From: Rhizophagus irregularis
Lineage: Eukaryota
Assembly (NCBI RefSeq): GCF_026210795.1
Contig: NC_089436.1
Location: forward strand, 744,001 to 808,000
Direction: 5' to 3'
Length of the DNA stretch: 64,000 nucleotides
Below the pieces are notes generated by a model that made no database searches, was not told the DNA's origin, and was given only the letters and a program-made list of their open reading frames with translations. Of the stretch, positions 101 through 25,110 are shown one piece after another (the stretch's first letter is position 1; every line of letters starts with the position of its first letter). The translations under genes and the position numbers were made by a program.

Positions 101-399
101 TTTTTATCACATGTTATTTATTACAATTAAGGGGTAAATTTTCGTGTTGTATTTATTTATAAAATTAAGGATCTAATTTATAATATAAATTTTACCTTAT
201 TATATACTGAAACCTATACAAATTATTAATTAATTTTACCTTATAAACCGGAAACCTATTTTAACTTTACCTTACATACCCGGAGACCTTTATTTGTTAT
301 ATATATAATTTTACCCTTAACTATTAAGAGACCTAAAATTTAATTTTACTATAAATTTTACCACAGATTTTTGGACACCTATATTAGAAGTAAGCGGGG

Positions 400-6449: not shown

Positions 6450-8035
6450 ACTAATGTTCTAACGAAAAAGGTATGTTAAGAAATGTCGAAGGCGATAAAA
6501 TAGTTTTAGTAAATATTCTAATAAACTAAATATGTTTCTTTTAGTTAACATACCGATTTTTCTCACCAAGATTTTTCTTTATCAACGAGTGCTTGAACAT
6601 ATGAAATTTTTGAATTATCGTCTGAAAGGGCGTTAAATCATCTTCTTTCTTGTGCTACAAATTTTAACTATTTGTCAACTGTTTTTCATATAATTTTTCT
6701 TGTTTTTCTGTTTGCCATATTTGATACTTCAAAAGATAAAATAATAATAGCATCTTTTTAGCGATGGCCATTACATGAAATGCTTTTGTTCCTTCTTCAT
6801 CAAAATTAAGTCGAATGGCGATATTAACAGCCATTTTAGTTGATGTTAATAGTTAGAGAGTTGAGAGATGAATAGAATTTTTAAGAGTTGAGAGACGAAT
6901 AAAATTTGAGACAAGATGATGTATTTATGTATAAATATAATCAGAGAGTCACATGATGTGAACAAAGTTAGTAAAATTTGTATTTTTATGATTTATTTAT
7001 GTTTATTTATGTAAACTCAAATGGAGTTTTTTGTTCTCTAATTGTTTATCTATTTAAGGAGTAAACTTATTTTTATTTTAATTGTGAAAAAATATTTTTA
7101 ATGAAAAGGGCCAACGCTCTATTCGGCAAGAATTTTTCTGATATTATACTACTGCGCAAAAAGCGCGCTATTGGAAACTTTAGATTGAAGAAAGAGATAT
7201 TTTGCATGAACTGATCAAAGATTATGACTTAAATGACATTTTTATACAGGTCGAAAAGTGAAAAATCAGGCACCAATCAGTCACCAATCAGGTAGCTGAT
7301 TGGTGACTGATTGGTAACTGATTGGTGACTGATTGGCATTTTCGCCAAATACCGTTACCAATCAGGCAGTTTGCTAACTTTTGATCCAGTGATCAGAAAA
7401 GGATGAAATATAGCTCATTGGAATCGTCTCAACATGATGAATCTAATGGTAGTAAAATCGCATTTCTAGGATTAATACTTGATGAGAAATTAAGTAAAAT
7501 ATAAAAATAAAAATGTATCATTTATATTTTATTTAATTTTTTATTAACTATTAATCCTAGAGATGCGATTTTACTACCATTAGATTCGTCTTGTTGAGAC
7601 GATTCCAATGAGCTATATTTCATTTTTTTCTGATCACTGGATCAAAAGTTAGCAAACTGCCTGATTGGTGACGGTATTTAGTGAAAATGCCAATCAGTCA
7701 CCAATCGGTCACCAATCAGGTACCTGATTGGTGACTGATTGATGCCTGATTTTCACTTTTTGACCTGTGATTAATTGTGATAAATTTTACTTTTTTCTAT
7801 ATTTATAATTTTGTTTATTTTAAAGATTATATTAGAATCTAACCATCAGAAACATTACTTCTTTCTGGAATAAAGAAATCTAAAAAAGCAGGTTACTCTA
7901 CTTTTTATATGCAATACTACTCGTACAGAAAATTAAAGCCATTATTTATTCATAAATATAAGAATCATGAATTAGCAGTAATTTATTGCTGAAATTTAAC
8001 TGCATGGATGATTATCTTAAAAAATTGGATATGCA
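6450..8035. repeat. Right arm of the inverted duplication (partner 2735-4470), interrupted by a foldback MITE
   Basis: Reverse-complement similarity to 2735-3340 and 4080-4470. Confidence 0.8.
7247..7767. mobile_element. Foldback MITE (~520 bp, almost fully palindromic), Tc1/mariner-like CAG termini
   Basis: CAGGTCGAAAAGTGAAAA...TTTTCACTTTTTGACCTG; arms of ~250 bp with CACCAATCAG subrepeats; TA on the left flank; absent from the partner arm. Confidence 0.8.
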
Positions 8036-8263
8036 AGTGCAATTACAAAATCACAATATCCTTTTACTTGTTCCGATGTTAATTTGATATCATGTGTCAT
8101 TTTGACTGAATCAGAACAATTCTTTTTATAGTATTGTTGATTCATTGAAATACATACAGAAAAATCTACTTCGCAAATTTTTTAAACTAAATGTATTGTA
8201 AAATTAATGTCATAGTATAATGTATACAAACTATAATAAGATGCCCTAGTATAACATTAAAAG

Positions 8264-8561
8264 AGGACCCCAGATATCTAATATAAAGGTCATAATGGAC
8301 TTTTGGCCAAAAACACCCCTTTTTGCTGAAACTCAAAAAATCGTTTTTTGTAAATATCTCAGCATCCAGTAATTCAATTTTAATGAACTTTTTTTTATTT
8401 TGTAGCCCTCATTTAGCTCTACAATTTAAAAAAAAATTTCATCAAAATTGGACCACTGGATGCCGAGATATTTACAAAAAACGATTTTTTGAGCCCCTGA
8501 AAAATGGGCCAATCTGCCGAAAGTGTGACTTATGACCTGTTTTGGAGATATCCGGAGTCCT
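8264..8561. mobile_element. MITE with 8-bp TSD (hAT-like TSD length)
   Basis: Termini AGGACCCCAGATATCT and AGATATCCGGAGTCCT; ATTAAAAG at both 8256-8263 and 8562-8569; internal long inverted repeat. Confidence 0.75.
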
Positions 8562-8924
8562 ATTAAAAGTTACTGTAAAATATATTGTAAATTTAATTAT
8601 AAAATACAGTACGAATGCATTATCTAATGTAAAAATTAGGATGTTTCAAAGATGCCAAAGATGATTTACATCAACTGTATCCTTTATTGCAACCTTTTTC
8701 CTTTCCTTTTGTTATAATTGGATAGTCACGGATTTTTAAGCGACATAGCTACCCTAGTGACATAACTATAACAAGGTGGGAACCTGATTTGAACACTTGA
8801 TCCATTGATCGATCGGAACTGAATTTTCTGCAGATAAAGAATTTAAGCTATTAATAGTATTCAGTAAACTCCCTCTTATTACTTCCTTCCAGCCATTCCT
8901 TCGGCTCTTACTTTTTAGTAGTGC

Positions 8925-9407
8925 GTCGTCGGTCTGGATGTGTGTCTCGCTACCGCTCCACCCACCTCGGACTCACGTCCTCGCAGTACCTATATCTCGC
9001 TATCGCTCCACCTATATCGCCCCTACGGGGATCAGGAATCCCCATATATCCGCCACAATCTGGGACAACATATGGAACAAATATATATACCAAATAACTA
9101 GAAAATAATAGAAAAGGAAGGAATAACGGATATAATAAGAGGGTTGTCCCAGATGTGGCAGATGTGGCAGATGTTTCAGAAAAAATATGAGAGGACATCC
9201 CCCCAGAAAAAGTTTTATTTTTACCCCCAGATCCGCCACATCCGAACATCTGGAACAAGTCAGGATTCCGTCTAATAATCTATTGGAAGCAGTGAGACAG
9301 CAAACCAGGTAAATTAGTAGGTAAGCCCCTAGAAGGTCTATAGAGCCCAGTAAGACCAACCCCGTCCCGCCCCCGTCAGAAAAAATAAGTAATTGAACAA
9401 TGGGTAT
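8925..9407 (+). repeat. Left terminal inverted repeat
   Basis: Begins GTCGTCGGTCTGGATGTGTGTCTCGC; reverse complement of 22792-23276 with a few mismatches and indels. Confidence 0.97.
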
Positions 9408-9445
9408 TGAGAATGAGCATATCAAGATAAGTTTAGAAGACAGTA

Positions 9446-9765
9446 CTAATCCGTCTTCTTCTTTTTTGCCTCCTTAAGGCATTTATCAATACACTGTTTA
9501 CACGTGTCATCAGAATCTAAGATTTTCTGTCCAAGTTTTTTGCATTGCCGATTGTAAGCCGTCTGCTGTCTCTTAGCAGCGGTTTCTTTCTTTTCTCCTT
9601 AGTCTTCTTCTTGATCACCCAGTCTATTCCAGTAAAAGTATTCTTATGCATACCACAAATTGTGCAGTCACCATGCAGCCGGTAACGCCCATTTGTAGTC
9701 ATATCTTGTATTTTACTAGCCGTCTCAGTTTCCTTCTTGCACTTTAGGCAGTAAAAACGTGTCAT
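9446..9765 (-). CDS. Small zinc-ribbon protein (DUF5679-like), one frameshift near 9590
   Basis: FYCLKCKKETET...TTNGRYRLHGDCTICG has paired CxxC motifs; the shifted frame continues as a Lys-rich helix with CKQC to TAG at 9446. Confidence 0.6.
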
Positions 9766-9809
9766 TTTAAGATTTGAAGTCTAAAACCATTCCTTTAATT
9801 TGTTGTAAT

Positions 9810-10897
9810 ATGTCACACTTAGAGAATTACTATAAGTACTACAATCTCTCCGGAGTACCAGCACGAATTCTAAAAGGTGAAGAGCACTACAACCTATACA
9901 AAAAGCCCCTAAAGGAAAAGTCAACAGAACGCCCAAAGGTAATTGTATGGAAACCAAATGCAACACATCAGGCAGATCTTGCAGAGATGCCAGTTGACCC
10001 CAAAGGATTCCACTATTTCCTCGTAGTGGTGGAAGTTGCAGGAAAGAGAGTTGATGCAGAACCCCTAAAGGATAAGACTGCAAATAGAGTTCTAAACGGG
10101 TTTGTCAAAATCTACAGAAGAAATCGTATTAAGCCACCAACACACAGACTGGAGACAGACTCCGGATCAGAATTCACTAACGACCAGATACGTGATTTTT
10201 TCCTGAACAGCCTAGGGGTAATGATGAGGTTCGGCGAACCAGGAAGGCATAAACAGCAATCTTATGCTGAAAGAGCTATCCAAGCCATCCAAGAACCCCT
10301 TCTTAAACGAATGGTAGCACAGGAGTTGAAAACTGGGGTGACATCCGTGGAATGGTCAGAAGATTTCCATAATATAGTGAGTAAAGTAAATGAACTCTGG
10401 CAGAGAAATCCCCCAGACATTCCGACAGGGTCACCCAAAGTGTCAAAAAAGACAGACCTCCTCTCTAAAGGAACACGTGTCAAGTCAAGTTAGATGAACC
10501 TATTTCTGTCTTGGTAACAAAGCAAGGAAAATTCCGTACAGGAGGCATAAGATGGAACCCAAACATTCGTGTAATCAAAAAAATGATACTCTCACCTGAA
10601 CAGCCTCCTACATATCTCCTTAATGGACCACATGGTCGATTAGGTGTATCCAAATGTGCATATACCCGAAAGGAATTGCAAGTAGTTCCTATTAATGAAA
10701 AGCCTCCACCTGACTCTGTGATAAGAGGACAACCTGAAAGATTTGTACCTGAGCAGATACTTCGGCATCGCATTAGAAAAGGTCAAGACCAGTATTTGGT
10801 TAAGTGGGAGAGATACCCAGATACAGAAGCCACTTGGGAACCTGCTGACCAGTTGAAGGAAGATGTCCCTGACTTAATTCGCAAATTTTGGGAATAA
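9810..10897 (+). CDS. Retroviral-like DDE integrase with C-terminal chromodomain (frameshift near 10485)
   Basis: HQADLAEM, LETDSGSEF and SYAERAIQ give the D-D-E triad; FVPEQILRHR...YLVKWERYPDTEATWEP is a chromodomain; joins ORFs 9774..10493 and 10511..10897. Confidence 0.92.
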
Positions 10898-10922
10898 AAA
10901 AAAATAGAAGAATTAAAGGGTC

Positions 10923-11660
10923 TTATTTTTTGTCTCCTCTATTCACATCAGGAACTATCGGGATAAAAACATTCTTCCCATCACAGGTAAAGGCTATATG
11001 TTCACGTGATTCATGGACATCATAATTGTAACGTTTCAGACATGTCCGGCTCAATCCAATTTCCCTATGCTTGTATCCATCTAAAACTGCAAGATCCTCA
11101 GTGATAGCATAATCAGGGGTAAGTTTGATTGACCTCCCTTTACCATGCCGAATGTCCTACCTGTTCCTGGAGCACCAGATATGTTGTATGTAATACTCTT
11201 GTCGATATTCAACCCTAATTCCTCAGCAGCTTCTCTCTGAATAAAAGACGCATTAGCACAAGTGTCTGCTAAACACTGAATTGCTATTCCATTAACCTCC
11301 CCATCCAGTGCTAAAAGATCTTTAGTATTCTCCAAACGAGCTATATCAATATCCATAGGATCGTATTCCCTAATATCCTCTTCTTGTTCCTCCTCAGCTA
11401 AGTCATCTGAAATCTCTATGACTTTTCTAGCAGATATCATCTCCTCCTGAAGAATCTCACGGAGTAATTTCCTAAAGTCTGCAGACCTTAACAGGCTTAA
11501 TAAGTCATTCTTAGTAACAGCTTTTGCAGGTGTAGACTTACTACCAGTAACTTTCACAGGAATCTTAACAGGGGTTGCTTTACTTTTCAAGGGTACACTA
11601 GAAGAGCTAACTGCTGTCTTATTTGGGGACGACTTAAGAAGTTTTGAGATACTCGAACCT
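10923..11660 (-). CDS. Retropepsin-like aspartic protease in the -1 frame relative to gag (extra frameshift near 11135)
   Basis: PMDID, then GEVNGIAIQCLADTCANASFIQREAAEELGL (LxDT[G/C]A-type active site); flap ISGAPG; shifted frame gives EIGLSRTCLKRYNYDV, equivalent to the ILGxDxL motif, ending at TAA 10923. Confidence 0.8.
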
Positions 11661-13089
11661 ACTTTTTTTTTGACCCAACACGAACCATATAGACATCACC
11701 ATCTTTTTCTCTCAATTCTACCTTTTCACCAAAACTCACAGTATCAATGTCCATAGCATCATCATTAAGATCAAGATTTCTCATTGCTCGGGCTAAATCC
11801 AGATCATCACGTCTATCTTTAGCCTTCTGAAGTTGATTTGTAAGTATTTTAGACGTCCCACGTTTATATCCCATAATAAGATCAATAGCATTTTGATGAT
11901 CATCCAAAGTCCACTCAGGAGCATCAGGGTCATCACCAACATCATGATCTACATAACCATCATCCCAATCAGGATCCTGAGGATCCTGAACAACACGTCT
12001 CTGTGGTTTTGGTCGAACAGGTTTAATCTGCTGTCTATAGACTGGTGGATTACGAACTGGCCGAGCCTGTAATTGTTTAAATTGCACCTGAAAATTCTTG
12101 GTAAGTTCGTCAGCTTGAGCCTTAAGTAACTTTTGTAATTGTTCTTGAGTAACCCCAGATGACTTTGATGTCAGTACGACAGGTTCCTGTTTTCCTAACG
12201 GAGGTTGAGTTACATCACTGTAATCTGCTTGAAGTCGTCGATTTCTATCTTGTAACCCCAAGCGCATTTCAGCCCTTCTCCGTTCTAAATTTCTCAGATG
12301 TTTAACCAAGTCATCAGGATTAAGATTACTAAACCTTTCTGCTTCAAAAATATTATCAGCCGAAAGACCTCTAAAGAACTGGTCGATAATAAGATCATCA
12401 GTTAGTTTTAGTAATTTACCAGCTCTCTTTACAGTTCTATAAAATGCATCAACTGGCTCATTTTCCTGATAAAGACTGTTAAAATGGATACGTTTCTTTT
12501 CATCTAAAATAGTTGGGAATTGTGTTCTAAGCCAATAAAGCGCCTGGTTAGGTTTAATACCTGGAAAAACTATAGAACGATTATTATTAGCAGCAACACC
12601 AGCATCTGCAGTAGCTGGAGCAGCTCTATCTGTCGGACGAGCACCAGCTCTTCCCCAAGCTTTATCTCCACCTATTAAATCATGGGTAGGAATAAATGCT
12701 GCTCTAATAGTTACTAATGCATTAGCTACATCTGTAGCATGAACATCTGCTTCAGACCCATTTACATAGGTACCTGCATTTGGTCCTCCTGCACCTTCTG
12801 GTATTACTAATGCTACAAAAGCAGCTAAATTAGCTCCACCTCTTGAAGTGATACCAGAAAGTTCCCAATTTTTTCCTGTAATTTTCGATCAAACCATTCA
12901 GCCGCTTCACCAGCCATGCAGCTTAAAAAGTATACCCAGTAGCTCTTTTCAAGACTCTGGTGGCCATCCAACAGCATATGGGTTAAGATTAATAGTATCA
13001 AGATAACCCATATAAAGCCTAACAAATGTATCAATATCATCAGTAGCTTTACCCTCAAAAATCGGCAATCCTATCGCAGTGGTAGCCAT
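11659..13089 (-). CDS. Ty3/gypsy-like Gag (capsid) protein, with indels near 12880-12955
   Basis: Manual translation from ATG 13089: LPIFEGKATDDIDTFVRLY...MAGEAAEWFD...WLRTQFP...LYQENEPVDAFYRTVKRAGKLL...IIDQFFRGLS (major-homology-region-like); then in frame with ORF 11659..12309, which contains AMDID. Confidence 0.75.
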
Positions 13090-13868
13090 ATCGTCTCTAG
13101 TGGATTGTTTAATATAGGTGGAGGAGGGTTCAATTGTCTAATTCGAAACCATTGTACCTGAATTCTAAGAGCAGCTATCTGTTGGAAAAGTCTATTCCTA
13201 AGTCTCCCTAATGTCTGAATCCCAAAACGCACCCTATTATTAGCATGTGCTAGCTGTACATTAACCTGTCCAAGTTGCGCATTAGCCAATACAAGTTGTC
13301 CTCCAGTCCGAGTAGCCCTCAGCCGCCAATGATTTAAAAGGATATTACCACGATTCACAGCATTTTGAGCCTCATTACGATCCCTTACTGCTTGAGTATA
13401 ATCTGCTTGTAATACATTACGTTCATGTCGTGCCTGATTACGTTCACCTATAGCCCGTCGACGAAGCTCTACCATAGTATCATAATCTCTTTGCAGGTTA
13501 TGGTTTTCTTCTATAAAATTATCATTGGCAGCACGTATAATAACTAATTGACGTTCTAAATTAGTAAACGTTTCATCAAATGCATTTATCTTACCTTGTG
13601 CAAAAACTAACAAATCTTTTGTAATACCAAGTTCTTCATGTTTTGCTTTACAGCGATACATTAATATATTAATAATATGTTTGATTTGATTATTTGCCTC
13701 CTGTATCTCTGAATCAACAGTTAAACGACCCCTGGTAGTCAATAAATTTGCATGAGCCTTTAGTATTCTAACTAATTCATCATCGTCTTTTTCATTGACC
13801 AAGTGTGCAGGAGGTGGTCCAGTAGGTTCTGAAGGAGTATAAACTGGAATTGGTGTTGATGTCGACAT
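13071..13868 (-). CDS. Coiled-coil protein, probably the N-terminal part of the Gag polyprotein
   Basis: Heptad-like ERNQARHERN...RDRNEAQN; poly-Pro linker overlaps the gag ATG by a one-base frame offset. Confidence 0.65.
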   Translation of the reverse strand: MSTSTPIPVYTPSEPTGPPPAHLVNEKDDDELVRILKAHANLLTTRGRLTVDSEIQEANNQIKHIINILMYRCKAKHEELGITKDLLVFAQGKINAFDETFTNLERQLVIIRAANDNFIEENHNLQRDYDTMVELRRRAIGERNQARHERNVLQADYTQAVRDRNEAQNAVNRGNILLNHWRLRATRTGGQLVLANAQLGQVNVQLAHANNRVRFGIQTLGRLRNRLFQQIAALRIQVQWFRIRQLNPPPPILNNPLETIWLPLR

Positions 13869-13899
13869 AGTATTTAAACTAAGTTAGAATAAAATTCAA

Positions 13900-15123
13900 A
13901 TGGATCTTTATGTATACAATTTGGACGAGTACACGACCGACTCAAGACAAGGCAATGAGTTTGCTCCATCATGGCCCTTTCGATTAGCCATAGCAGGTAG
14001 CTCAGACTCAGGTAAGACAACTATGATCATTAATTTGTTAATGGGTGACAAGAAAGTAAAGGAGGATGGTAATCGGTATGTACTATGTGATGCAGTACTT
14101 TTAGTTGGCAGATATCTTGACGAGCCGAAGTGGGCAGTTGTACATGATTTTTTCGAAGAGGAGAAGATCCCATTCACTGCAGTAACCCATAGTGAGATTC
14201 CAGAGATTGACTCCTTCGACTCTACTCAAGCTACTGTGGTAATCTTCGAGGATCTGATGGATGCACCTAAAAAAATCCAGGATCTCATCACTGGTTACTT
14301 TACACATGGACGACACAAAAATATTTCATGTATTTATGTAGCTCAAAGATTCTTTGCCATTCCTAAGGCTATTCGAGAAAATGTTAACTACATCTCACTG
14401 CATGGAGGTCATGGGAGCCTTACAGATACTAAGAGAATCATTCGCCTATATACAGAAGAATCAGAGTCATTAGCACCAGTAATTGATAATCTTACTTTGC
14501 AACGTGAATTTGTAGTGTTTGATCTTAGACGGTCTAAAAGTGATCCACTGTCCATTCGAGTAAGATGGGATACTAGTCTCAGTTCGATCACAGAGCAATC
14601 TCAGTTCAATCCTAGTTCAATCTCAGTTCAATCTCAGTTTGATCCAAGTTTGAACCCAGTTCGATCTCAGTCTGAACCCAGTTCAATCACAGTTCGATCC
14701 AAGTTTAGTCCTTATGGTCAGAAAGCTGTATCTGAAGCAAAAAAAGGTGGACACTTGATTGAATTTGCTCGGGTATTTCCATCCCCTAAAGAGCGTCAAC
14801 ATTTACTTGTACCTGGTGTCTTAGCCAAGAATACAGATACCTGGATTAAATTTGTCTTTCGGGAAGCTTATGGACTTTCTGGTAAGACCCTAGGAGCTGA
14901 CTTTCAGGACTTCTTAGCAAAAGTACAGGGTAGGACTGCAAAGACTGAAACTCTGAAAACTGAGAATGTGAAGGAGTTATTCTCCCGATATGAAGCCCTG
15001 AAGTCTAGTCGCCCTCTGGATAATAAAAAAATAATAGAAGGAATTGAAGTCCTTCTACAGATCTTTTCTAAGAGCCACATGGACCGTCGAGCATTACAAG
15101 TAGGGATTAATAGTATCTTGTGA
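13900..15123 (+). CDS. A32/FtsK-like DNA packaging ATPase with C-terminal extension
   Basis: Walker A GSSDSGKTT; Walker B VVIFEDL; FTHGRHKNISCIYVAQRFFAIPKAIRENVNYI is typical of Polinton/NCLDV packaging ATPases; intact 407 aa. Confidence 0.93.
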   Translation: MDLYVYNLDEYTTDSRQGNEFAPSWPFRLAIAGSSDSGKTTMIINLLMGDKKVKEDGNRYVLCDAVLLVGRYLDEPKWAVVHDFFEEEKIPFTAVTHSEIPEIDSFDSTQATVVIFEDLMDAPKKIQDLITGYFTHGRHKNISCIYVAQRFFAIPKAIRENVNYISLHGGHGSLTDTKRIIRLYTEESESLAPVIDNLTLQREFVVFDLRRSKSDPLSIRVRWDTSLSSITEQSQFNPSSISVQSQFDPSLNPVRSQSEPSSITVRSKFSPYGQKAVSEAKKGGHLIEFARVFPSPKERQHLLVPGVLAKNTDTWIKFVFREAYGLSGKTLGADFQDFLAKVQGRTAKTETLKTENVKELFSRYEALKSSRPLDNKKIIEGIEVLLQIFSKSHMDRRALQVGINSIL

Positions 15124-15664
15124 GAATATCAAGTAATTCGTCTGCAGAAGCTCTAAGAATCATAGCACTTTTTTACGGCCTTCAAAGTCAATCCTTAACA
15201 TCTTAGCCTTCAACCCTATTGCTCCTAAGGCACGAGAAGCAAAGTTCTTAGTCATTGAATTACTTATATGATTTACATAGTTCTCATAGAATGTATTGAA
15301 AGGCTTGTCGATACCATCTGGATATGTACCCCTTAGAAATTGATATAAGGCAATTTCTCCACTATCACAACCTATGGCTATAAGCTGTTCGAGAAGCCAC
15401 TTCCTAATATCTTCATATGGCTCTCCATCCATAATTTTCATATCCAGTCTTTGTGTAAACAATTGTGTAAAGTCCACATTACTTGCCTGACGAATGATCT
15501 GAACTAACTTATCCCTAGCAAGTCCCAAGGCTTAGAGGGTCATTCTCATCACTAATCTTCTTTATAATCTGTCTGTATAATACACTGGATAATCCTCTAT
15601 GTGCTGTTTTTGGAGTGATTACTCCACAGTTTTGGCACTGGTTTATTACGATTGATGTTGACAT
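15107..15664 (-). CDS. Hypothetical protein with N-terminal CxxC and C-terminal winged-helix-like segment (frameshifted)
   Basis: ATG 15664 MSTSIVINQCQNCG, shifting into ORF 15160..15528; the C-terminus resembles the helicase C-terminal domain. Confidence 0.55.
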
Positions 15665-15709
15665 GGCTATCTTTCTTTATGTAAAAAAGAATTATTCAAA
15701 ATTAAGTAA

Positions 15710-16291
15710 CTATTCAGAGCAGTCCTTGCACAACTTGTCCGTTAAGTCACTTGGGCTTACAGGCATGAGACATTCCCTACACAACTCAATATTAAGCTCT
15801 GCAAGTCTCGGGGTATGGTCCTCCAAAGTTCGTGGACGACTGGAAGGACCGGAGGAAGGTGTTCCGTTAGTCGTATCTTGCTGTAAGATAAAATCATCAT
15901 ATTCATCTTGGTCAGCCTGAATAGCAGTCCTGATTTGTTGTATATCATTGAAAGTTAACCGCTGCCCATCAAGATTTTCCTCATTATAGCGTGTTTCATT
16001 GATGATTTCCTCTATAAGCGCCTCTTCTTCATAATGGACAAGGTAGTAATCCTCAACTACCTCATAGTCACTCTCAATCAGTCTATAATATGTTCTAGTA
16101 CCACGTCGAACATAACGTCCTGTATCTGTATTTAAATATACAGGTTGCTCTTCAGGTGGAGGTGCAGTTTGTCTACGGACAAGCCTTCCATCAATATAAT
16201 CATGGGATTCCATAACTATTCGATTAAAGGTATCTCCACCGATAATAATTGGACGTCCAGTTATAGGGTTAGCTATATAAGGGTAAGACAT
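15710..16291 (-). CDS. Hypothetical protein with two NPxTGR-type repeats and a C-terminal CxxC...CxxC zinc finger
   Basis: YIANPITGRPIIIGGDTFNRI and YLNTDTGRYVRRGTRTYYRL resemble the core of the viral 2-cysteine-adaptor repeat; LCRECL...LCKDC at the end. Confidence 0.65.
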   Translation of the reverse strand: MSYPYIANPITGRPIIIGGDTFNRIVMESHDYIDGRLVRRQTAPPPEEQPVYLNTDTGRYVRRGTRTYYRLIESDYEVVEDYYLVHYEEEALIEEIINETRYNEENLDGQRLTFNDIQQIRTAIQADQDEYDDFILQQDTTNGTPSSGPSSRPRTLEDHTPRLAELNIELCRECLMPVSPSDLTDKLCKDCSE

Positions 16292-16356
16292 GTCTTTTTT
16301 CTGTACGTGTCTACATACCTAATAGTTTTCTTCAATTTACAATAACCAAGTGACAC

Positions 16357-16556
16357 GGTCATCAGTCCTTATCAAAAAATACAAGAATACCTGATGATAA
16401 GATTACATGGTCATCAGTCCTTATTAAAAAATGCAAGGATACCTGATGATAAGGTTACATGATCATCAATCCTTGTCGAAAAAATTCAAGGATACCTGAT
16501 GATAAGGTTACATGGTCATCAGTCCTTGTCAAGAAATATGAGGATACCCGATAAAT
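16357..16556. repeat. Four ~52-bp tandem units, each an imperfect hairpin
   Basis: Units start at 16357, 16409, 16461 and 16514; TCATCAGTCCTT...AAGGATACCTGATGA. Confidence 0.9.
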
Positions 16557-16559
16557 AAG

Positions 16560-16972
16560 CTACTCCTGTTGAGTCCATTCATTCCACTTCCAGTCCAGTC
16601 TCCAAGGATCGCCTCCCCATCTTTGTTCACTTAATGCATGCTCTATGGTTTCCCTCTGGGGTCCACGACCATCCCATTCCTAAGCATTTTCTCCATAATA
16701 TAAAGCTGATCCTCGGTGAGGCGGTCTATCCATCTTTTATAGAAGTCGTTTACATCTTCAAATGATATCCAGTCAATATTCCCTTTTTCAAACGGCTTTC
16801 CAAGAGCTTGGACATGCCCAATTGTAGTAGCATAATTTTTCCATCTCTTATATGCTTCTTGACGAACCTCCTGCCACCACACACTATCTACTTTACTCGC
16901 TGCAATAAGGTCAGTATCTGGGATCTTTGCAACAATGCGTTCGACTATTTCTACTGGTAATCGGTCCAACAT
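16560..16972 (-). CDS. F-box protein (frameshift near 16655, Trp-rich tail)
   Basis: MLDRLPVEIVERIVAKIPDTDLIAASKVDSVWW fits the F-box consensus; shifted frame ...RWGGDPWRLDWKWNEWTQQE*. Confidence 0.8.
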
Positions 16973-17092
16973 GATGTTATGTTACTTATACTATAGCCAT
17001 CTTCAATTACTGTATGCCCATTACAAATGGATAAAAAATATAAACTAAATTCGTACGGGAGCCGCTTATGCAAGAAGTTCTGCTAAGGTTTT

Positions 17093-17536
17093 TCAGGCCT
17101 CGTTTTTAGTAATAGATCGCTTTGGGGGACCGGTTGATGAGTCCTTAGTCGCATTATAATACAATTCGAAGAGGGCCTCAAGTTTGTCTAAAAGAGCTTG
17201 TTTATTCTTGTATGATTCACGAATCTTTGCTATCTTAGCAGTATATGCTGCATTATCTGGGAAGAGTTTTCTGGCCACGAACTTCACATATGATACAGGA
17301 GAATTTGCCGTCTGGATTCGCTTGATATACTTCACATGATCCTGGACAAGGTAGCTGGTTTTGCTAAACCCAGATACTAATGCGACTACTATAGTGTCTT
17401 TTCAATGCACGGATAATGCGAGGACAGTTTCATCAGAGACAATGGTGAACTGATTGTGTGATGCATCATAAATAACTTTATCACTAATGCTGTCAGTGCT
17501 GTTAATAATGCTTGCTAATTCGGTATATGTTGACAT
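17093..17536 (-). CDS. Hypothetical protein, interrupted near 17400
   Basis: ATG 17536 (MSTYTELASIINS) is preceded by the element's shared upstream motif and leads into ORF 17093..17335. Confidence 0.5.
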
Positions 17537-17649
17537 GATTCCTTATACTTTTTTGTACTTTGTAATAAATAGGAATCTTCAAATTGACTTTACATTCAAG
17601 CAAGAAAAAATATATATACCTACTGTAAATCCAACCGCATTCTTGGAAA

Positions 17650-19530
17650 TCATGTCCAGATAACCTTGTTTGCATTTTTCACATGGCAGTATCCTGCGGT
17701 TTCAAACTTGAGAGCTTTCAATGCTTTGGATGCATTTTCTGGACAAGTGATAAGTGTAGGACTACTCGGCTGTTCCTCTAGAATAAATCCATCTGTATGG
17801 ATGCGTCGTACTTTATCCTTATATGGTTCTAATAACTCTGAAGTCGTCTTCCGTCCATGTGCTAATAAGAATGGAGCGATCCTAGGATACTCACCCTTGA
17901 AGGGACTACCTGGGTTTGTGAACTGGAATCGCCACTGGTCAGATCCTACTGGTACGATGGAGTCAAGTGTGTGGCCTTCTGGAAACTTGAATGGATCTGT
18001 TTGATCTGTGGTGAGTATCTTGTAATTGCGTTTCCTCTGGCAGAGTGCTCCCCATAGTGTATTGAGAACTCTCTTTGCAACACGACCGGCCACGCCACCC
18101 TGGTTCTTTATATTGAAGAGAAAGTGGACATACTCACCAAATATTACAGTCCCAGGAATTCTTGCTTCTCTGTCATATATCAAGGCATTTGGCTTTCCAT
18201 CCTGGATTAACTGTATATCGAGTCCAAGTTTTTTTGCTCGTTGTAAGTCAATGAATGTATAGACTCCCCTCTTATTCTGTCGGAAGAGAATATCATTACC
18301 ACTTACCGCTTGCCTTGGGCGCTCCCGGAGCTAGCACGAAATAATCCATACAAGGCATAACCTCTATGGTCTACAAAGTCTTTGAGTATTTGAAACTTAC
18401 CTTGTCGGATTGGAAAGTTTGCATTTGATTGCTGAATACTTGGATACAAACTTGTCACGTCGTATTGCCTTCCATAGCCCTTCCATTCGTTGTCTGCCCA
18501 GATAAGACCTCCCATCATTGCATCACTTATCCACTCTGCTTCGACTGGGTCAAGAGGATCATTGGCTGGAACCCCTACACTAAACCGTTCAAAAAGCCAG
18601 AGTGCAGTTCTCTTGTACGACCAGTTGTGGTAAGATAAGTCAATTCCTAGACCCGAACTTCTTTGTAGCCTGTAGGAAGGAATCCCGCTCTTCATGGATC
18701 CTCTGGTATGTTTCCTCAAGTGTTTCATATATTCCAGTTTTACAATTCTTCTCGATAGGGATGAAGGAGTAACTATCAGAGTTCTTACCTTTCTGAAACT
18801 GTCCAACTGTAAGAGACTTAACTGTCTTACCATTGTATATTTTTACTACATTATTAACCCCATCTTCACGATAAACAAAGGGAGACTTTTGTTTTCTATC
18901 TAATTTGCTAGGGTGGAGTCTTCCGGGATTCAGTGCAAGAGAGTAGTGGCCTTCAGACAGGATAAGTGTTGCACGTCTGTCAGATTTGCTCTTAGAAATT
19001 CGAGTGGAATCCCCTACAATATTAAGTGCAAGGCTTCCTGCAAGTTGTTCAATCTTATCCATATATGAGACTGGAACTGGAGCATCACGATTGAGACCTA
19101 ATGCCTTTTTGATATACTCGGGCTTTTCGATTGACTTTGGCATTTTAGAGAATGTGCCGTAGATATATTTCAGGCATTCATACAGGCAATCATTTAGCTC
19201 CCCGTTGCAACCCCCTGCAACCGGTGGGGCATCTCTCACATAAATTATGAATCGTTCAAAATAATCAGGGTCTGCGTCATCCGGTAGTTGTGCTTCGTCG
19301 TAGTGGACTAAGAGTGAGAAGAGGCTGGCTGGTTGGTTTCCTGATGTCCATCCACCGGGTTTCCAGTTTTCATAGGGGAGCAGAATCTGAAATTTATGTG
19401 TCGGATACCGGGATTGGAGTCGCTGTCCAAATCTTGCTATTGCTCCTCTGGAAAATCTTGCGCCTGAATACTGTAATTCTTTGATATCCGGTCTTGTAGG
19501 TAAAGCACGGACAATCTCTGAATAAACCAT
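17650..19530 (-). CDS. Compact protein-primed-type family B DNA polymerase with N-terminal OTU-like protease segment (frameshifts near 18650 and 18320)
   Basis: AMMGGL; motif A YDVTSLYPS; motif B KRVLNTLWG; motif C RIHTDGF; N-terminal NDCLYECL and LILSEGHY; joins ORFs 18640..19530, 18303..18833 and 17650..18183. Confidence 0.85.
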
Positions 19531-19613
19531 TTGATGTATTTATGAATTGTGTTCAGTTGTAATATAGGTTTTTTATACAAAAAATATAAGATAACTAAGA
19601 AGTGCTTATCTTA

Positions 19614-22168
19614 TTAAAAGGAGTCAATCTTGCTGCATACACGATCAAGATCCTCTTCATCCCAGTCGTCGACAATTCCATTGGCGGCTTCCCATTCACG
19701 TTCCATATCAGTTTTTGGACATTCCTCGGGGATCTCTCGCGCTTTACCCTTATTCATCTTCATAGTTTCATAACCGGAGGTGGTAGGGATAATCTCGGCA
19801 TCATGATCCTCCTTATATGCTCTTATTAGATCTGCGAGTTCTTTACGGCTAGGTGTTTTAGGTAAGTACCCATTATATTCTATCCAGTCCTTGAAGCGGT
19901 CTACTACCTCCCTAAGGTAGTACTGGTACTCGTCCTCAATACGTGTTGTGGGACATTCCTCTACTTCAAATGCGAGTATTTCCCAGTCATAGTCGTCTGA
20001 CACGTCTTGGTACTTAGCCCATAAATCCTCACCCTGTATTGTAGAGATCATTGAAGACCTGGTCCTTTGAATTCTCGACCCATGGCTTATGATCCCATCG
20101 GTGCCTTTCATACCAAGCCCAGTGTGCTCGAGTACCTTCCTTTGGTTCAGGGTCCCAGTCAACTTCTAGTTCTGTGTCAGGTTCTGGGATAGGTTGCTTT
20201 TCAGGAGCCGGTTCTGGATCAGGCTTAGTAACAGATGCAGAAAATTCTGCGGGAGACTCGGGTTGTTGTTCAGGAGCTGGGTTCACAGTTGTAAAATCTG
20301 AGTCAGATAGCAAGTCATCTAAAACGTCGTAGTCATCATCAGCTTTAAATGCAGGTTCCTCAGCAGGCGGTTCATTTTCTTGATCAGGTTTCTCATCAGA
20401 TAGATAACAGTCCGAGAAGCTATCTATAGGTTCATCAGTATCTGACTCTATAGGAGCTGGAGATTCTTCAGGAATAGGATCCTCATTGATGACAGGTGCG
20501 GGTTTTACCTTCAAGGAATCGGGTTTGGGTGGTACTGGTGGTGAAGTCTTTTTGGGAACTACAAGTGCAGATTTCTCTTCAGTAGGCTTTTTCTTGACAG
20601 GGAGCGGGTTTTTCCTCAGCAGGTTTCTCTTGTACATCTTGTGGATTATTAGCAGGAATGCTATATATATTTGCCAAGAACTTTTCTAAGGCTTTGGGAT
20701 CAGATGCGGGCTTCTCAGGAGTTTCTACATCTATTCCTTCTATATTGATTTCATCTGTTTCGTGGATCCATTTTTTGGTGAGAAACTTTTTGTAAAGGTC
20801 CTCCCTGGATATGCTGTAAACTCGTGGTGTTGCCTTACCTACACGTATTTTTCTGCTATTTATACCCAACTCATTTGATAGGATTCTAGAAGCGTTTATC
20901 TTTGATAGGGGTGTAATGCAATGAGTTTCGCAGTATGAAGTATATACCCTATAAAATTCTTGAACAGGTAGGTCGGTTATATGATTTTTTACTATGAGGT
21001 AAGTGTCCTTTATGAATTGAAATAGGGGTGGGAGAGTTGATATGATGTGATCCTGCTTAGATATTGTCATAGGTGGTGGATTCCCATTGAAGTCTGGGTA
21101 AGTGTCTGCAATGGCTCTCAAGTAAGCATAGAATGCCTCACTGGCGCCTGGGTATTTCATAGCATCGCTGAGTTTCTTAAAGTAGTTAAGGTCTCCCTTG
21201 CGGGATGGTGACACATCCAAGAACACTGTGCGCCTATCGTCATTCTCCACTCTGAGAGCATTTTCATTGGTGAGTACAATAGTGGATATAAAGTTTTTGT
21301 AATGTGTTGGCGTCTTGTATTTTTCATGGATTTCCATTATGTCACCTGTTACCTTATCCTTCAACGATCGATACAGATTATTCCACTGGCTTTTTTCTGT
21401 AGGCATTTCCTCGAGGAGGAGAAGAATCTTACCTTGTAATTGCCCATTGAAACTTCCAAGAATCGTTTGAGGATCGCTGGTCTTATAAACAAGTTGAGTA
21501 CCTAAGACACTACGTTGAATGAAATCTGTTATAATACTCTTACCCCAACCCTGTCCGGATTTCAGGTAGAGAATCGAATACATTTTCCTTCCAGCTGCCA
21601 CACCGGCCAACCACTTTATGATATACTCAGTAAGATTCCAATCGCCTGAACACCAGATATCCTGAATGTGGGAGAAGATAAATTTAACTGCCTGATGGGT
21701 TGTAGACTCAAAATTGGATATCAGACGCAGGATATGGAGAAATCCTGGGAAGATATTGAGATAAAGTTGGCCACCTAGTTTAAAGATACGGGATTTTTGA
21801 GGGTCACAGGTAGCTACACATACAGTACTATATTCGATCATAAACCATTTGTTGATATTGAATTCAACCTTTTGTGAAGGACCTTGTTCGGATTGTGTGT
21901 AAAAGACTTTGGTAATTGGACGGATAAGTTTACTAATATTTTTATCGGGGATGTGCTCGAGGTTTTTGATTTCTGATCGCCACATGAAGACTCCATGTGG
22001 GTTGGAGCAGGGGATAAAGTAACTGCAAAGATAACCTTTAGCTTGATTGAGATCCCTCATATTCTTTGCAGCGTTAATGAGCCGTTTAAGCTCATCAATA
22101 CTAAAAGCCTTCTTCTGTTCACCGAACTTGGGGATAACTTGAGCTTGAGTGCTAGTTTGGGCAGTCAT
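19614..22168 (-). CDS. D5-like SF3 helicase with winged helix and long Pro/Glu-rich acidic tail (frameshifts near 20630 and 20040)
   Basis: Walker A SGQGWGKS; Walker B LLLLEEM; motif C IVLTN; DDRR; joins ORFs 20579..22183, 20029..20637 and 19614..20162. Confidence 0.85.
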
Positions 22169-22402
22169 TTTTTGTTCTATCAAATCGAGTACTAATTTAT
22201 AGTTACCTAATCTTCAATTGCCGAATATTTTTCCAAAAATCTGCACTCCTACCAATTTACCCTCCTGTAGTCCTATGGTCCTGCAATTCTGCGGTCCTCC
22301 GGTCCTCCGGTCCTCTGGTTATATCTGGTTATCTTCTAGGGGTAAAAAAAAACTATAAACCACGAACCTTTACGACTGCTCTAAATCTTCCCTTCCCCTT
22401 TT

Positions 22403-22762
22403 TCAAACTACATATATCTGAAATCCAAACCGCTCAAGAGCTCCTTTTACTATAGTTAGCTTTTTTCTAGTGTCCGTTAACTCTTTACAAGCCTTTTGAT
22501 ACGCCTTCCATTCAAGTTCACGGAGGATACCCTCCTCCTCCAATGATTGGCCAAGAGCATCATTTGCTTTTTCCTTCTTTTCTACTGCCCTGTCGTATGC
22601 CTCCTCGGCTTTTTTATGCCACTTCCAGAGTACTCGTTCAGCTTCGGCTTTCCAGATTGGGCTGACTTCTAAAAGACGTGGCCCGAAATTGCTACTTGGA
22701 ATGTGTTCCAGGATATGGCCTACAAGTTCGGGAATTACTGATACTGCGTGCGGGGTATACAT
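22403..22762 (-). CDS. F-box-like protein with coiled-coil C-terminus
   Basis: IPELVGHILEHIPSSNFGPRLLEVSPIWK is F-box-like. Confidence 0.65.
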   Translation of the reverse strand: MYTPHAVSVIPELVGHILEHIPSSNFGPRLLEVSPIWKAEAERVLWKWHKKAEEAYDRAVEKKEKANDALGQSLEEEGILRELEWKAYQKACKELTDTRKKLTIVKGALERFGFQIYVV

Positions 22763-22791
22763 GTTATCTGTCCTTATAGGTTACTTATGGT

Positions 22792-23276
22792 ATACCCATT
22801 GTTCAATTACTTATTTTTTCTGACGGGGGCAAGACGGGGTTGGTCTTACTGGCTCTATAGACCTTCTAGGGGCTTACCTACTAATTTACCTGGTTTGCTG
22901 TCTCACTGCTTCCAATAGATTATTAGACGGAATCCTGACTTGTTCCAGATGTTCTGGATGTGGCGGATCTGGGGGGGTAAAAATAAAACTTTTTCTGGGG
23001 GGATGTCCTCTCATATTTTTTCTGAAACATCTGCCACATCTGCCACATCTGGGACAACCCTCTTATTATATCCGTTATTCCTTCCTTTTCTATTGTTTTC
23101 TAGTTATTTGGTATATATATTTGTTCCATATGTTGTCCCAGATTGTGGCGGATATATGGGGATTCCTGATCCCCGTAGGGGCGATATAGGTGGAGCGATA
23201 GCGAGATATAGGTACTGCGAGGACGTGAGTCTGAGGTGGGTGGAGCGGTAGCGAGACACACATCCAGACCGACGAC
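22792..23276 (-). repeat. Right terminal inverted repeat
   Basis: Ends GCGAGACACACATCCAGACCGACGAC, followed by TSD AGTGC. Confidence 0.97.
22802..22808 (-). promoter_or_regulatory. AATTGAA putative element promoter motif (one of ~8 instances)
   Basis: Same or similar motif ~27-45 nt upstream of the ATGs at 22762, 22168, 17536, 16972, 16291, 15664, 13868 and 9810. Confidence 0.55.
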
Positions 23277-24439
23277 AGTGCACCATTAAAATACTGTATA
23301 CTTCTGATTTTACTATCAATTTTATTTACCAGAAAGATTATTTATTTGGTGGATTATTTGTTTTTAATTGTTATTTTTAATGAATATTAGTGTTTTATCG
23401 ATACCTTACCAATATCATATTGATATCGGAAAAAATTTTATAGTTTCTGCAAGTTGCCTTCTCTTTGTCACTAACGTCCGTGAATGCATCTAATTCAAAT
23501 TGTGAAATTTCAAAATCTTCAACAGTTCGAAATGATGGTAATTCCGTCATTAAATGTTTTTATTAAATACGTATAATTTTGAGGAAGTATTTGTTTTAGA
23601 AATTCGGGTAAAGACGTAAAGTATCCCAAGAAATGATCTATAAATGAATTTTTTTATTAATATCATTTTTTAATAATAATTCAATATCATCTAACAAATT
23701 AAAGCTTCACGATAAATTTAACAATTAAAAATTTAAAATTTAATAATTAAAGTTTTACAACAGATAATTAATAAAAATTTAACAAATTAATATTCTACAA
23801 TAATATTTAAAAATAAAGATGATAAAAACATATCATTATTTAAAAAAAAAATAACAGAAATGAATTTTTAACAAAAATAAATGCAACGCTATAGACAAAT
23901 CAATGATATTTTAACAAATTATTAACAAAATAAAGATACATGATAAAAACATGCTACAGTACATAATATAATAAATACAGATAGTAACGAGAAGAATGCA
24001 TAATTAACTAGCTCTTCCATAATGATTATTTGCGTAACTTTCTAAAAATTTTTAAAAATAATGAATAAAATACTTTGATTTTAATATAAAAACATATATA
24101 TTAATTACAAACGTTAAGAGAAACTATATAAAAAATAAAAATGATAAAGAGGTTGTTCTACTTGAGAAAAGAGCGCATGAGAAAAAAAAATTAACAAAAA
24201 AAAGGAGAAAAAAAAGGAGTACAAGAAAACGTGGGACTTGAAAATTACATTAATATCCCCGTTCTGAATTTTCCATTGCGATATTTTATTATCGATCATA
24301 TTGTACCTAGTTTACATAACTTTCTTATTGACATTATAATAACCAAAATTTATTTATTTTCATGTATAAAGTTATTTCAAAATACTAGTTACATGTAACA
24401 ATTCTCATATTTACGTATAACGAAGAAGTTCAATAATGT

Positions 24440-25110
24440 AATAGACATCTGGGTATTTATAATTTCCATATTGAACAACATTATCGGCAGTTATGATTTC
24501 AGTAGGTGGAAAGTCAAGGAAAGGGTTTTCATCTTTGAAGTATTTATAGCACCACAAACACTATGATGTATTACAGTTTTGACTACCTTCTTCATTTCTT
24601 TCTTATCCAACTGGAAGACAATCAGGTTGAGTAACATAATTACCCACCATTGCAATTGAGTGCAAGCATCTTCAACTGGTGGCTCTAATACTTCCCAGTC
24701 CGATAGAAGGTTGGAAAGTAAACTCTCACTTAGGTTTAAAACTTTCATTCTGTAATAATTTCAGTTAATTTCAGATCACATGTATCAATGATACGCCACC
24801 AAACAGCCCAATAATAGAAAGATTTCATAATCATATATTTTGCGTTTCTGCTACTTGAGACAGTGATTTGAAGTCAGTTGTGTCAGTTGTGATGGTGAGA
24901 TCTTCGCGATGTTGATGAATTCGTTTAAGCCAATCAGAAATTGATTGTTCAAATTCCCAGCTTTTCTCAAGATTATGTTCTTTCTATCAGTGCATTCAAC
25001 AAAAAGGCAAAGAAGGCAAATTAATTACACAGCACAATACAAAAAAAAAACGCAAAAAAATAGAATAAAATATATGACTTACGACTTGTTCATTATCAAT
25101 GATATTGCAC
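24440..25110 (-). pseudogene. Degraded paralog of 400-1160
   Basis: Shared nucleotide blocks such as TTCTTATCCAACTGGAAGACAATC and GCAATTGAGTGCAAGCATC. Confidence 0.55.

What the first reader, a model, noticed from the sequence alone, without database searches (positions are those of the whole stretch)
8925..23276. Polinton-like DNA element with a retrotransposon Gag-protease module in place of the jelly-roll capsid module
Seen: TIRs, a TSD, integrase, A32 ATPase, PolB and D5-like helicase. No remaining ORF is long enough or similar enough to be a double-jelly-roll major capsid, penton or adenain protease. Instead 10923-13868 encodes coiled coil, Gag-CA-like motifs, (P/A)MDID motifs and a retropepsin, with no RT, RNase H or LTR. 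The module looks integral: it ends 25 bp from the integrase stop, starts 31 bp from the ATPase start, and has the element's upstream motif. Established: virus-like Polintons pair the A32 ATPase with DJR capsids and a cysteine protease, while Gag/PR belong to LTR retroelements. Inference: a chimeric element that may package protein-primed DNA genomes in Gag-derived particles. I do not recall this architecture being described but cannot check the literature.
Basis: partly seen in the sequence, partly recalled or inferred. Interest (0 to 1): 0.95.

Follow-up and report, generated by a model that had tools for sequence, protein, structure and literature searches.

The report
Fungal Polinton with a retrotransposon capsid
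A virus-like DNA transposon of root-symbiotic fungi has kept its DNA-packaging motor but carries a retrotransposon-type capsid and protease gene instead of the usual capsid gene, an arrangement shared by distant relatives, so it likely travels in a shell borrowed from RNA-based elements.

Summary
Observation confirmed and extended. Window 8925-23276 is a recent Maverick/Polinton insertion (98.4% identical TIRs, 5-bp TSD) of the Rhizophagus/Glomeromycotina family, with pPolB, S3H helicase, rve-chromo integrase and A32 ATPase. No ORF long enough for a double-jelly-roll capsid is left unassigned. The Gag-like ORF folds as a two-lobed retroelement CA with a ~100-aa insertion; the top 35 structural matches are all retro-CA. 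The order ATPase-coiled coil-Gag-protease-integrase recurs in metagenome relatives at 30-50% Gag identity (17 of 32 loci reach the ATPase; 7 of 8 long enough reach the integrase; none has RT). Gag and protease are under purifying selection. An A9-10 run at the Gag stop (17 of 21) puts the protease in the -1 frame, a likely programmed frameshift. Gag-pro shares the element's T-run avoidance. So it is not a nested retrotransposon. Particles and ATPase-driven DNA filling are inferred, not shown, and CA and ATPase identities do not co-vary. Prior art: a 2021 figure legend (Starrett) lists Gag/retropepsin labels, probably for the Rhizophagus element, without discussion; later papers still call the Glomus capsid missing.

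The parts
8920..8924 (.). left target-site duplication AGTGC
   Evidence: sequence
8925..9407 (.). left terminal inverted repeat, begins GTCGTCGG
9446..9765 (-). DUF5679 zinc-ribbon-like ORF (broken), head-to-head with integrase; same place in L002, L014, L020, L025
9810..10897 (+). rve integrase with C-terminal chromodomain; D-D-E residues present; one frameshift near 10480
10923..11671 (-). retropepsin ORF in the -1 frame of gag; D-T-C motif at 11258-11266; one frameshift near 11138
11663..11671 (-). 9-A run just before the Gag stop: candidate programmed -1 frameshift or slippage site
11659..13089 (-). Gag-like gene: CA N-lobe with ~100-aa insertion, CA C-lobe, tail with MDID motif, no CCHC knuckle; broken in this copy
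13071..13868 (-). coiled-coil ORF, intact; stop overlaps the Gag start by 19 nt
13900..15123 (+). A32/FtsK-HerA packaging ATPase, intact, with an extra helical C-terminal region
15160..15676 (-). conserved ~190-aa ORF of unknown function (broken)
15710..16291 (-). ORF with weak 2C_adapt match (E 0.0017); homolog in L005
16322..16563 (.). 52-53-bp tandem repeats, non-coding
16643..16972 (-). F-box-like ORF (weak, E 0.005)
17093..17530 (-). conserved ~127-aa ORF (broken); homolog in L025
17650..19530 (-). short protein-primed-type PolB, two frameshifts; the intact relative is 624 aa with Cys/His motifs like a vOTU domain (inferred)
19614..22168 (-). D5-like superfamily 3 helicase; the two ORFs behind it are likely its low-complexity tail (780 aa in L003)
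22403..22762 (-). small ORF, F-box-like by eye only, no Pfam match
22792..23276 (.). right terminal inverted repeat
23277..23281 (.). right target-site duplication AGTGC

Best explanation
This is a glomeromycete Maverick/Polinton that carries a conserved Ty3/gypsy-like Gag-protease module in place of a jelly-roll capsid gene, and it likely uses the Gag shell to carry its own linear DNA. Shown: element anatomy, CA fold, conserved gene order, purifying selection, conserved A-run junction, shared T-run avoidance. Inferred steps: (1) PolB and the helicase copy the element from its ends by protein priming. (2) Genes are read from short TTGAA-type promoters and end at T-runs. (3) Gag is made in bulk and Gag-protease at a low ratio by slippage on the A9 run; no stimulatory RNA structure was found, so polymerase slippage is as likely as ribosomal. 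(4) CA assembles a shell with the insertion facing outward, and the protease trims Gag near the MDID motifs. (5) With no RT and no zinc knuckle, the cargo would be element DNA, brought in or handed over by the A32 ATPase, perhaps through the coiled-coil protein. (6) The chromodomain integrase reinserts it with a 5-bp duplication. My odds: integral module 0.95; forms particles 0.75; particles hold element DNA 0.55; ATPase pumps it in 0.35.
For: CA: profile hit to PEG10 CA-CTD at E 1.8e-4; model pLDDT 83; VIA rows 1-35 are all retroviral or retrotransposon-derived CA, best Z 10.0, rmsd 2.6, 84 aligned, with full-length HERV-K CA at Z 9.5 over 158 residues; Atlas top hits Retrotrans_gag 0.93. Protease profile hits DDI1 and Ty3 Gag-Pol at E 9e-6 to 6e-5. 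ATPase: top Foldseek hit is the STIV packaging NTPase B204, E 3.7e-6; Walker A, Walker B and the GRH motif present in 54, 54 and 53 of 55 sequences. Synteny: 17 of 32 Gag-anchored loci reach the ATPase head-to-head and the other 15 have at most 693 nt upstream; 7 of 8 with more than 150 nt past the protease reach the integrase tail-to-tail. L002 and L003 (99% identical in overlap, sharing a 123-nt inverted end) cover a second, divergent element with no DJR-sized free ORF. dN/dS: CA below 1 in 108 of 108 usable pairs (0.17-0.53 in the 12 with dS under 0.8); protease under 0.5 in 26 of 27; ATPase 10 of 11; integrase 6 of 6. A-run: 17 of 21 Gag ends against 1 of 110 other ORFs. T6 on the coding strand of gag-pro: 0 against 18.3 +/- 3.3 expected; ORFs outside the element are not depleted, 16 against 12.7. 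Polintons without an MCP often also lack ATPase and protease (PMC4028283), but here the ATPase is kept. No MCP was found in five R. irregularis genomes (PMC10640383).
Against: No particle, protein or clear RNA evidence: only assembled contigs were available. CA and ATPase pairwise identities do not co-vary (rho 0.15, p 0.33, 45 non-independent pairs), while Gag-protease (0.82), protease-integrase (0.79) and coiled coil-ATPase (0.61) do. L018 is 91% like the window in ATPase but 50% in CA, so CA is swapped freely, which is awkward for a tight CA-motor interface. No known Gag shell has a portal (recalled). The protease motif is D-T-C, D-S-C, D-S-A or D-S-G, and the second Gly is mostly Ser, so activity is uncertain. 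Foldseek alone gave no CA match at E 0.001 or better. Loci were picked by Gag, so Gag-less copies would be missed. No relative was found in IMG/VR in four scans. L031 has a Gag fragment beside a helicase in another layout.
Confidence: 0.55

Rival explanations
1. The element is a capsid-using intracellular transposon, not a pump-filled virus. Gag forms a cytoplasmic or nuclear particle that shelters replication or integration complexes (DNA, PolB, integrase) from RNAi and methylation and moves them between nuclei of the shared hyphal cytoplasm. The ATPase acts as a DNA translocase in replication or segregation.
For: Same anatomy and selection. CA and ATPase are uncoupled. The ATPase has a conserved extra helical region of unknown role. 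No IMG/VR relatives.
Against: The ATPase core's best Foldseek match is a viral packaging NTPase, though VirB4 and HerA tie with it by Z. The ~100-aa CA insertion is as conserved as the lobes (42% against 47-51%) and sits where HIV has its extra surface helices (PMC6525542), which fits an exposed role.
Confidence: 0.25
2. The element is a virophage-like parasite of an asfarvirus-like giant virus. Its promoters and T-run terminators serve the helper's RNA polymerase, the ATPase packs DNA into a capsid supplied in trans, and Gag-protease is an accessory scaffold or antagonist.
For: TTGAA within 50 nt of 21 of 50 starts against 5.3 in shuffles. T5NT after 22 of 62 stops against 1.6% of coding windows. 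The yeast VLE promoter ATNTGA lies 20-40 nt before the start and UUUUUNU ends vaccinia early mRNAs (PMC6211774). An asfarvirus-like insertion with RNA polymerase genes exists in one R. irregularis strain (PMC10640383). The short PolB resembles the mavirus TP-vOTU-palm layout (PMC11161782; by motif only).
Against: No MCP in five genomes, although Polinton and PLV MCP profiles were not among those listed. A two-lobed CA with a tuned Gag:protease ratio is elaborate for an accessory. Helper-dependent transcription is also compatible with the best explanation.
Confidence: 0.13
3. Gag-pro is the remnant of an LTR retrotransposon nested in a capsid-less Maverick and copied passively.
For: This copy's gag and protease are broken. 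Module GC is slightly lower, 38.9% against 40.5-43.2%. Retrotransposons do nest in virophages (PMC8547959, search listing only).
Against: Same position at 30-50% identity. Purifying selection. Longest repeat across the module borders is 8 nt. No RT family in 44 scanned relatives out of 150 listed or downstream of any protease. Integrase, PolB and helicase are equally broken here.
Confidence: 0.03
4. A divergent jelly-roll capsid hides among the unassigned ORFs and Gag is incidental.
For: Several 106-197-aa ORFs have no family and were not folded.
Against: Every ORF above about 265 aa is assigned to another family or is coiled coil in both elements. A DJR MCP normally needs well over 300 aa (recalled).
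Confidence: 0.04

Closest known systems
Mavericks/Polintons of Glomus intraradices = Rhizophagus irregularis; NCBI taxid 2707321 'Rhizophagus glomeromycete fungus MELD virus' (Starrett et al. 2021, PMC8502044)
   Same: Host group, pPolB, rve integrase, A32 ATPase. The Fig. 5 legend lists Gag/retropepsin and S3H labels, probably for this family.
   Different: In the passages and section 3.4 that I read the chimera is not discussed. No structure, conservation, selection, frameshift or CA insertion is reported. PMC7805220 states that no MCP was yet found in G. intraradices, and the 2026 preprint 10.64898/2026.06.19.733378 notes Glomus/Rhizophagus A32 genes with no occurrence of 'gag'.
Canonical Polintons (Polintoviricetes) and mavirus-like virophages
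   Same: TIRs, short TSD, pPolB, chromodomain integrase, A32 ATPase; mavirus-like short PolB (by motif).
   Different: No DJR-sized capsid ORF; Gag CA and an aspartic protease stand beside the ATPase.
Ty3/gypsy retrotransposons (Metaviridae) and domesticated CA (PEG10, Arc, PNMA2)
   Same: Two-lobed CA fold, downstream retropepsin, Gag/Gag-protease made by a frame change.
   Different: No RT, RNase H or LTR; the integrase is a separate gene on the other strand; ~100-aa insertion in the CA N-lobe; no zinc knuckle in the ATPase-linked group; altered protease motif.
Bidnaviridae
   Same: Polinton PolB joined to an unrelated capsid protein (PMC11161782).
   Different: ssDNA genome, parvovirus-type capsid, no A32 ATPase or integrase (the last two recalled).
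Caulimoviridae
   Same: DNA genome in a shell of CA-related protein (CA homology: PMC6525542).
   Different: They make their DNA by reverse transcription and have no packaging motor (recalled).

Membership tests
Maverick/Polinton | long TIRs and a 5-6-bp TSD | tested here: met
   483/485-bp TIRs, 5-bp TSD, many flanks at the terminus. The size rule is recalled.
Maverick/Polinton | protein-primed PolB | tested here: met
   PF03175 above cut-off in intact L003; fragment E 3.5e-5 in the window. Terminal protein and vOTU inferred from motifs only.
Maverick/Polinton | rve integrase | tested here: met
Maverick/Polinton | A32-type packaging ATPase | tested here: met
Polintoviricetes (capsid-bearing Polintons) | double-jelly-roll major capsid protein | tested here: not met
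   By ORF tiling, not by absence from a hit list: all long ORFs in two elements are assigned elsewhere and the longest inner gap is 351 bp.
Polintoviricetes (capsid-bearing Polintons) | penton and Ulp1/adenain cysteine protease | tested here: inconclusive
   No Pfam or PHROG match among small ORFs; they were not folded.
Ty3/gypsy LTR retrotransposon | Gag with two-lobed CA fold | tested here: met
Ty3/gypsy LTR retrotransposon | retropepsin protease | tested here: met
   Family met; activity untested, motif altered.
Ty3/gypsy LTR retrotransposon | RT and RNase H after the protease, integrase in the same polyprotein | tested here: not met
   The protease stop is 23-49 nt from the opposing integrase stop in the window and five loci measured; no RT.
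Ty3/gypsy LTR retrotransposon | flanking LTRs | tested here: not met
Virophage / helper-dependent PLV | replication depends on a giant virus | not testable with these tools
   Only promoter-like and terminator-like signals seen.
Virus (particle-forming) | genome enclosed in self-encoded particles | not testable with these tools
   Needs expression or purification.

The most novel reading that the evidence does not exclude
Glomeromycete Mavericks are a lineage of dsDNA viruses whose virion is a retrotransposon Gag shell with its own surface domain, filled with protein-primed linear DNA by an A32 motor. That would be a capsid swap across virus realms, the missing capsid of the Glomus Polintons, and a dsDNA virus form for mycorrhizal fungi.
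Probability: 0.35. Interest if true: 0.95.

Novelty: new variant of a known kind. Interest (0 to 1): 0.82.

Why it matters
It offers an answer to a stated open question: why Glomus/Rhizophagus Polintons keep a packaging ATPase without any detectable capsid (PMC7805220). It pairs modules thought to belong to separate virus realms, and the test is simple (express a natural intact Gag and look at what it encloses). Mavericks are among the most recently expanded elements of R. irregularis (PMC8647823) and are expanded in Glomerales (PMC11952901), so a particle stage would bear on how DNA moves in these plant symbionts. A Gag shell that accepts 14 kb of DNA through a motor would also interest people who use CA-derived particles for delivery.

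Tried and rejected
No host genome was held, so copies could not be counted or surveyed from the ATPase side. IMG/VR scans with Gag, PolB, integrase and ATPase found nothing; the sister-Gag alignment was too diverse to scan. The one prokaryote-genome hit, L033, is an unrelated P-loop match. A search for a donor retrotransposon with RT, using the L022 protease against longer proteins, gave 1 hit of 3137 candidates, a protease-integrase fusion without RT; weak as an absence. An RNA structure stimulating the frameshift was not found (z from -2.0 to +1.9 in 16 of 17 foldable cases). A frameshift or splice joining coiled coil to Gag was rejected: no shared slippery site by eye, and the Gag frame is open only 2-21 codons upstream; the fused NCBI gene models are probably prediction artefacts for this group. 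TGAA before the Gag start (11 of 16 loci against 26% background) may be driven by Leu-Asn codons, so I give it little weight. RNA-labelled runs held only thin contigs that may be DNA: no claim on expression. Contig depth covers gag like the rest of the element but cannot rank genes. The ATPase C-terminal region has no usable match. Complex prediction of CA with ATPase was not available. Coiled-coil dN/dS is unreliable (4 of 28 pairs under 0.5; L021 and L029 dropped for stops; poor alignment). Three of the 50 start positions were not ATG (my coordinate errors) and stayed in the count. The CA tree is the quick version only, midpoint-rooted. The Starrett supplement was cut before its tables, and Fig. 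5 and the GenBank record were not visible; they may state the Gag annotation outright. The 2024 MMBR polinton review is not held. Five look-ups of earlier scan findings returned nothing on this element.
Full report
1. The element. Window 8925-23276 (14,352 bp) is bounded by inverted repeats of 483 and 485 bp that are 98.4% identical and by a 5-bp duplication AGTGC. In public contigs the right end is followed by several different flanks at 23276/23277 in 3 of 4 runs, in the rows shown, so this is a true terminus of a multi-copy family. Its genes are 39-43% GC against 28% outside. Pfam gives rve plus chromodomain, retropepsin, Pox_A32 and a D5-like helicase and an organellar/viral PolB. The closest named homologs of the Gag-like ORF are Rhizophagus proteins; ATPase homologs include Diversispora. 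No genome was held. The copy is young but decayed: gag, protease, integrase, PolB and helicase each carry lesions, while the ATPase and coiled-coil ORFs are intact.

2. No jelly-roll capsid. About 91% of the DNA between the TIRs is coding and the longest inner gap is 351 bp. Every long ORF is assigned. Metagenome contigs L002 and L003 overlap at 99% and share a 123-nt inverted end; together they show a second element, about 50% identical in ATPase, with helicase (780 aa), PolB (624 aa), two small ORFs, ATPase, coiled coil, Gag, protease, integrase and two small ORFs. Pfam and PHROG scans of 33 and 15 ORFs gave no capsid or cysteine-protease family. A penton among the small ORFs is not excluded.

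3. The Gag is a real CA. A profile of 21 sequences hits the PEG10 CA C-terminal domain at E 1.8e-4, and 16 of 21 members touch Retrotrans_gag at E 0.5 or better. The model of the L002 CA (pLDDT 83) gave no Foldseek match at E 0.001, but most listed rows were CA proteins. In the wide VIA search rows 1-35 are all retroviral or retrotransposon-derived CA; best Z 10.0 (rmsd 2.6, 84 residues), full-length HERV-K CA Z 9.5 (rmsd 6.3, 158 residues), Arc N-lobe Z 5.2 over model 14-190. These Z values are modest for a helical protein; the unanimity and the sequence hit carry the weight. Between N-lobe helices 3 and 4 lies a ~100-aa insertion that is about as conserved as the lobes (42% against 51% and 47%). 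Ty3 helices 1-4 correspond to HIV helices 2-4 and 7 (PMC6525542, passages), so the insertion sits where HIV has its extra helices; that it faces outward is inferred. Seven Gag tails checked are near neutral in charge and only L022 has a CCHC knuckle.

4. The module is integral. One metagenome scan with Gag gave 32 loci. Seventeen reach the ATPase, always head-to-head across a coiled-coil ORF; the other 15 have at most 693 nt upstream. Seven of the 8 that extend more than 150 nt beyond the protease reach the integrase tail-to-tail; the eighth, L022, ends in a TIR-like terminus. L031 has another layout. Gaps stay tiny: 31-76 bp between ATPase and coiled-coil starts in 13 cases and 23-49 bp between protease and integrase stops in 6. 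The coiled-coil stop falls 19 nt into gag in 17 of 19. dN/dS is below 1 in all 108 usable CA pairs and 0.17-0.53 in the 12 least saturated; protease 26 of 27, ATPase 10 of 11 and integrase 6 of 6 pairs are under 0.5 (pairs are not independent). No LTR or duplication flanks the module (longest shared word 8 nt). The loci were chosen by Gag, so copies without it would not appear.

5. Expression signals. Of 25 sequences with the CA C-lobe motif, 4 run off the contig; 17 of the other 21 have a run of 9-10 A at the Gag end, against 1 of 110 other ORFs. The exceptions are L009, L011, L031 and L032. In all 17 the -1 frame stays open, for 193-302 codons or to the contig end, and the +1 frame closes within 17 codons where that can be seen. 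In L002 the first protease-frame ATG is 273 nt past the stop, so a frame change is needed. No downstream RNA structure stands out. TTGAA occurs within 50 nt of 21 of 50 starts (5.3 expected). Runs of six T are avoided on coding strands (5 against 27.7 in 62 ORFs; 0 against 18.3 in gag-pro; not in 8 outside ORFs), and T5NT follows 22 of 62 stops. Gag-pro thus follows the element's own rules. The signals resemble those of yeast cytoplasmic elements and poxvirus early genes (PMC6211774, passages); helper dependence is a possibility, not a result. An earlier AI note on an animal Polinton with poxvirus-type promoters is an untested parallel.

6. ATPase and protease. The ATPase core models well and matches the STIV packaging NTPase B204 first in Foldseek; in VIA it ties with VirB4 and HerA (Z 12.2 against 12.9). 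Catalytic motifs are kept in 53-54 of 55 sequences. The protease matches DDI1 and Ty3 protease and keeps the catalytic Asp, but often has Cys or Ala for the following Gly. An MDID-like motif occurs both near the Gag end and 29-38 residues before the protease active site in most of 8 loci: candidate cut sites, inferred.

7. How it likely works. Replication by PolB and helicase and integration by the chromodomain integrase follow from family knowledge (PMC11161782, passages). Gag in bulk with a little Gag-protease is the retroelement way to build and mature a shell. With no RT and no knuckle, RNA cargo has no evident use, whereas the ATPase is strongly conserved although capsid-less Polintons often lose it (PMC4028283, passages) and no MCP was found in five host genomes (PMC10640383, passages). 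By hand: a Ty3-sized shell (about 24 nm to the CA layer; inner radius taken as 21 nm) would be about 40% filled by 14.4 kb of DNA, dense enough that a motor or a larger shell would be needed. Against this, CA and ATPase identities do not co-vary and CA is swapped among copies; the coiled coil tracks the ATPase better, which may be an adaptor role or plain linkage. Particles were not observed.

8. Prior knowledge. Ten literature searches found one mention: the Fig. 5 legend of Starrett et al. 2021 (PMC8502044; section 3.4 and passages read, figure not visible, supplement cut; preprint 10.1101/697771 passages) lists Matrix/Capsid/NC/Pro and S3H, and a Rhizophagus MELD virus is in NCBI taxonomy and is cited in 10.1101/2022.05.25.493380 (passages). 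The labels very probably belong to this family. Bellas and Sommaruga 2021 (PMC7805220, passages) say no MCP was yet found in G. intraradices; the 2026 preprint (passages) places Glomus/Rhizophagus A32 genes with Maverick-Polintons and never uses 'gag'. Passages of PMC11952901, PMC8647823, PMC5751038, PMC11296320 and PMC13348850 add nothing on Gag. Subscription papers and Repbase were not searchable.

9. Verdict. A real, conserved and selected chimera of Polinton replication and packaging genes with a retroelement capsid and protease. The family is known and the Gag label was probably drawn once, but its fold, conservation, frameshift and surface insertion are not described in what I could read. 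New variant of a known kind; interest 0.82. If Gag shells are filled with DNA by the A32 motor (0.35) it would be a new kind of virion.

Noticed in passing
L002:7582-7902, L020:3194-3514: A stand-alone 106-aa ORF that matches the CA C-lobe only (hhalign 80%, E 1.4e-5; hmmsearch E 3.6e-5), beside the TIR. It recalls the Ty1 CA-CTD restriction factors seen and may be a copy-number control.
   Followed up: partly
P0235-P0303 group: Sister Gags in Entrophospora, Diversispora, R. clarus and R. irregularis share the CA insertion; many have the coiled coil fused in frame in the gene models, and 10 of 150 representatives have a CCHC knuckle. None scanned has RT. Context unknown.
   Followed up: partly
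P0356; L022:1-3031: P0356 is a protease, zinc-finger-like region and rve integrase in one ORF without RT. L022 has Gag with a knuckle, the A9 run, a D-T-G protease and ends in a sequence like the window's TIR terminus. A wider family of RT-less Gag DNA elements may exist.
   Followed up: partly
L011, L018, P0062 against window 11659-15123: Mosaics: neighbouring genes or the Gag tail are 91-93% or more like the window while CA is under 50%, so capsid domains are exchanged between copies.
   Followed up: partly
P0293, P0297, P0299: Proteins with a retropepsin followed by two CA C-lobe-like stretches, in reversed order relative to Gag-Pro.
   Followed up: no
window 14559-14722: 11-bp tandem repeats inside the ATPase gene, in the low-conservation linker before the helical tail.
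   Followed up: no
window 7233-7781 and 8261-8564: Two palindromic MITE-like repeats left of the element; the second is very abundant in runs laid.
   Followed up: no
window 26322-29735: A broken multi-ORF region that looks like another transposon, not identified.
   Followed up: no
window 317-775 and 24491-24748: Two related ORF fragments on either side of the element, probably one repeat family.
   Followed up: no
window 23277-23576, run X13 record 14: A contig matches the right flank from exactly 23277 with 168 further letters that are not TIR, as an empty allele would; the left flank was not in that call.
   Followed up: partly
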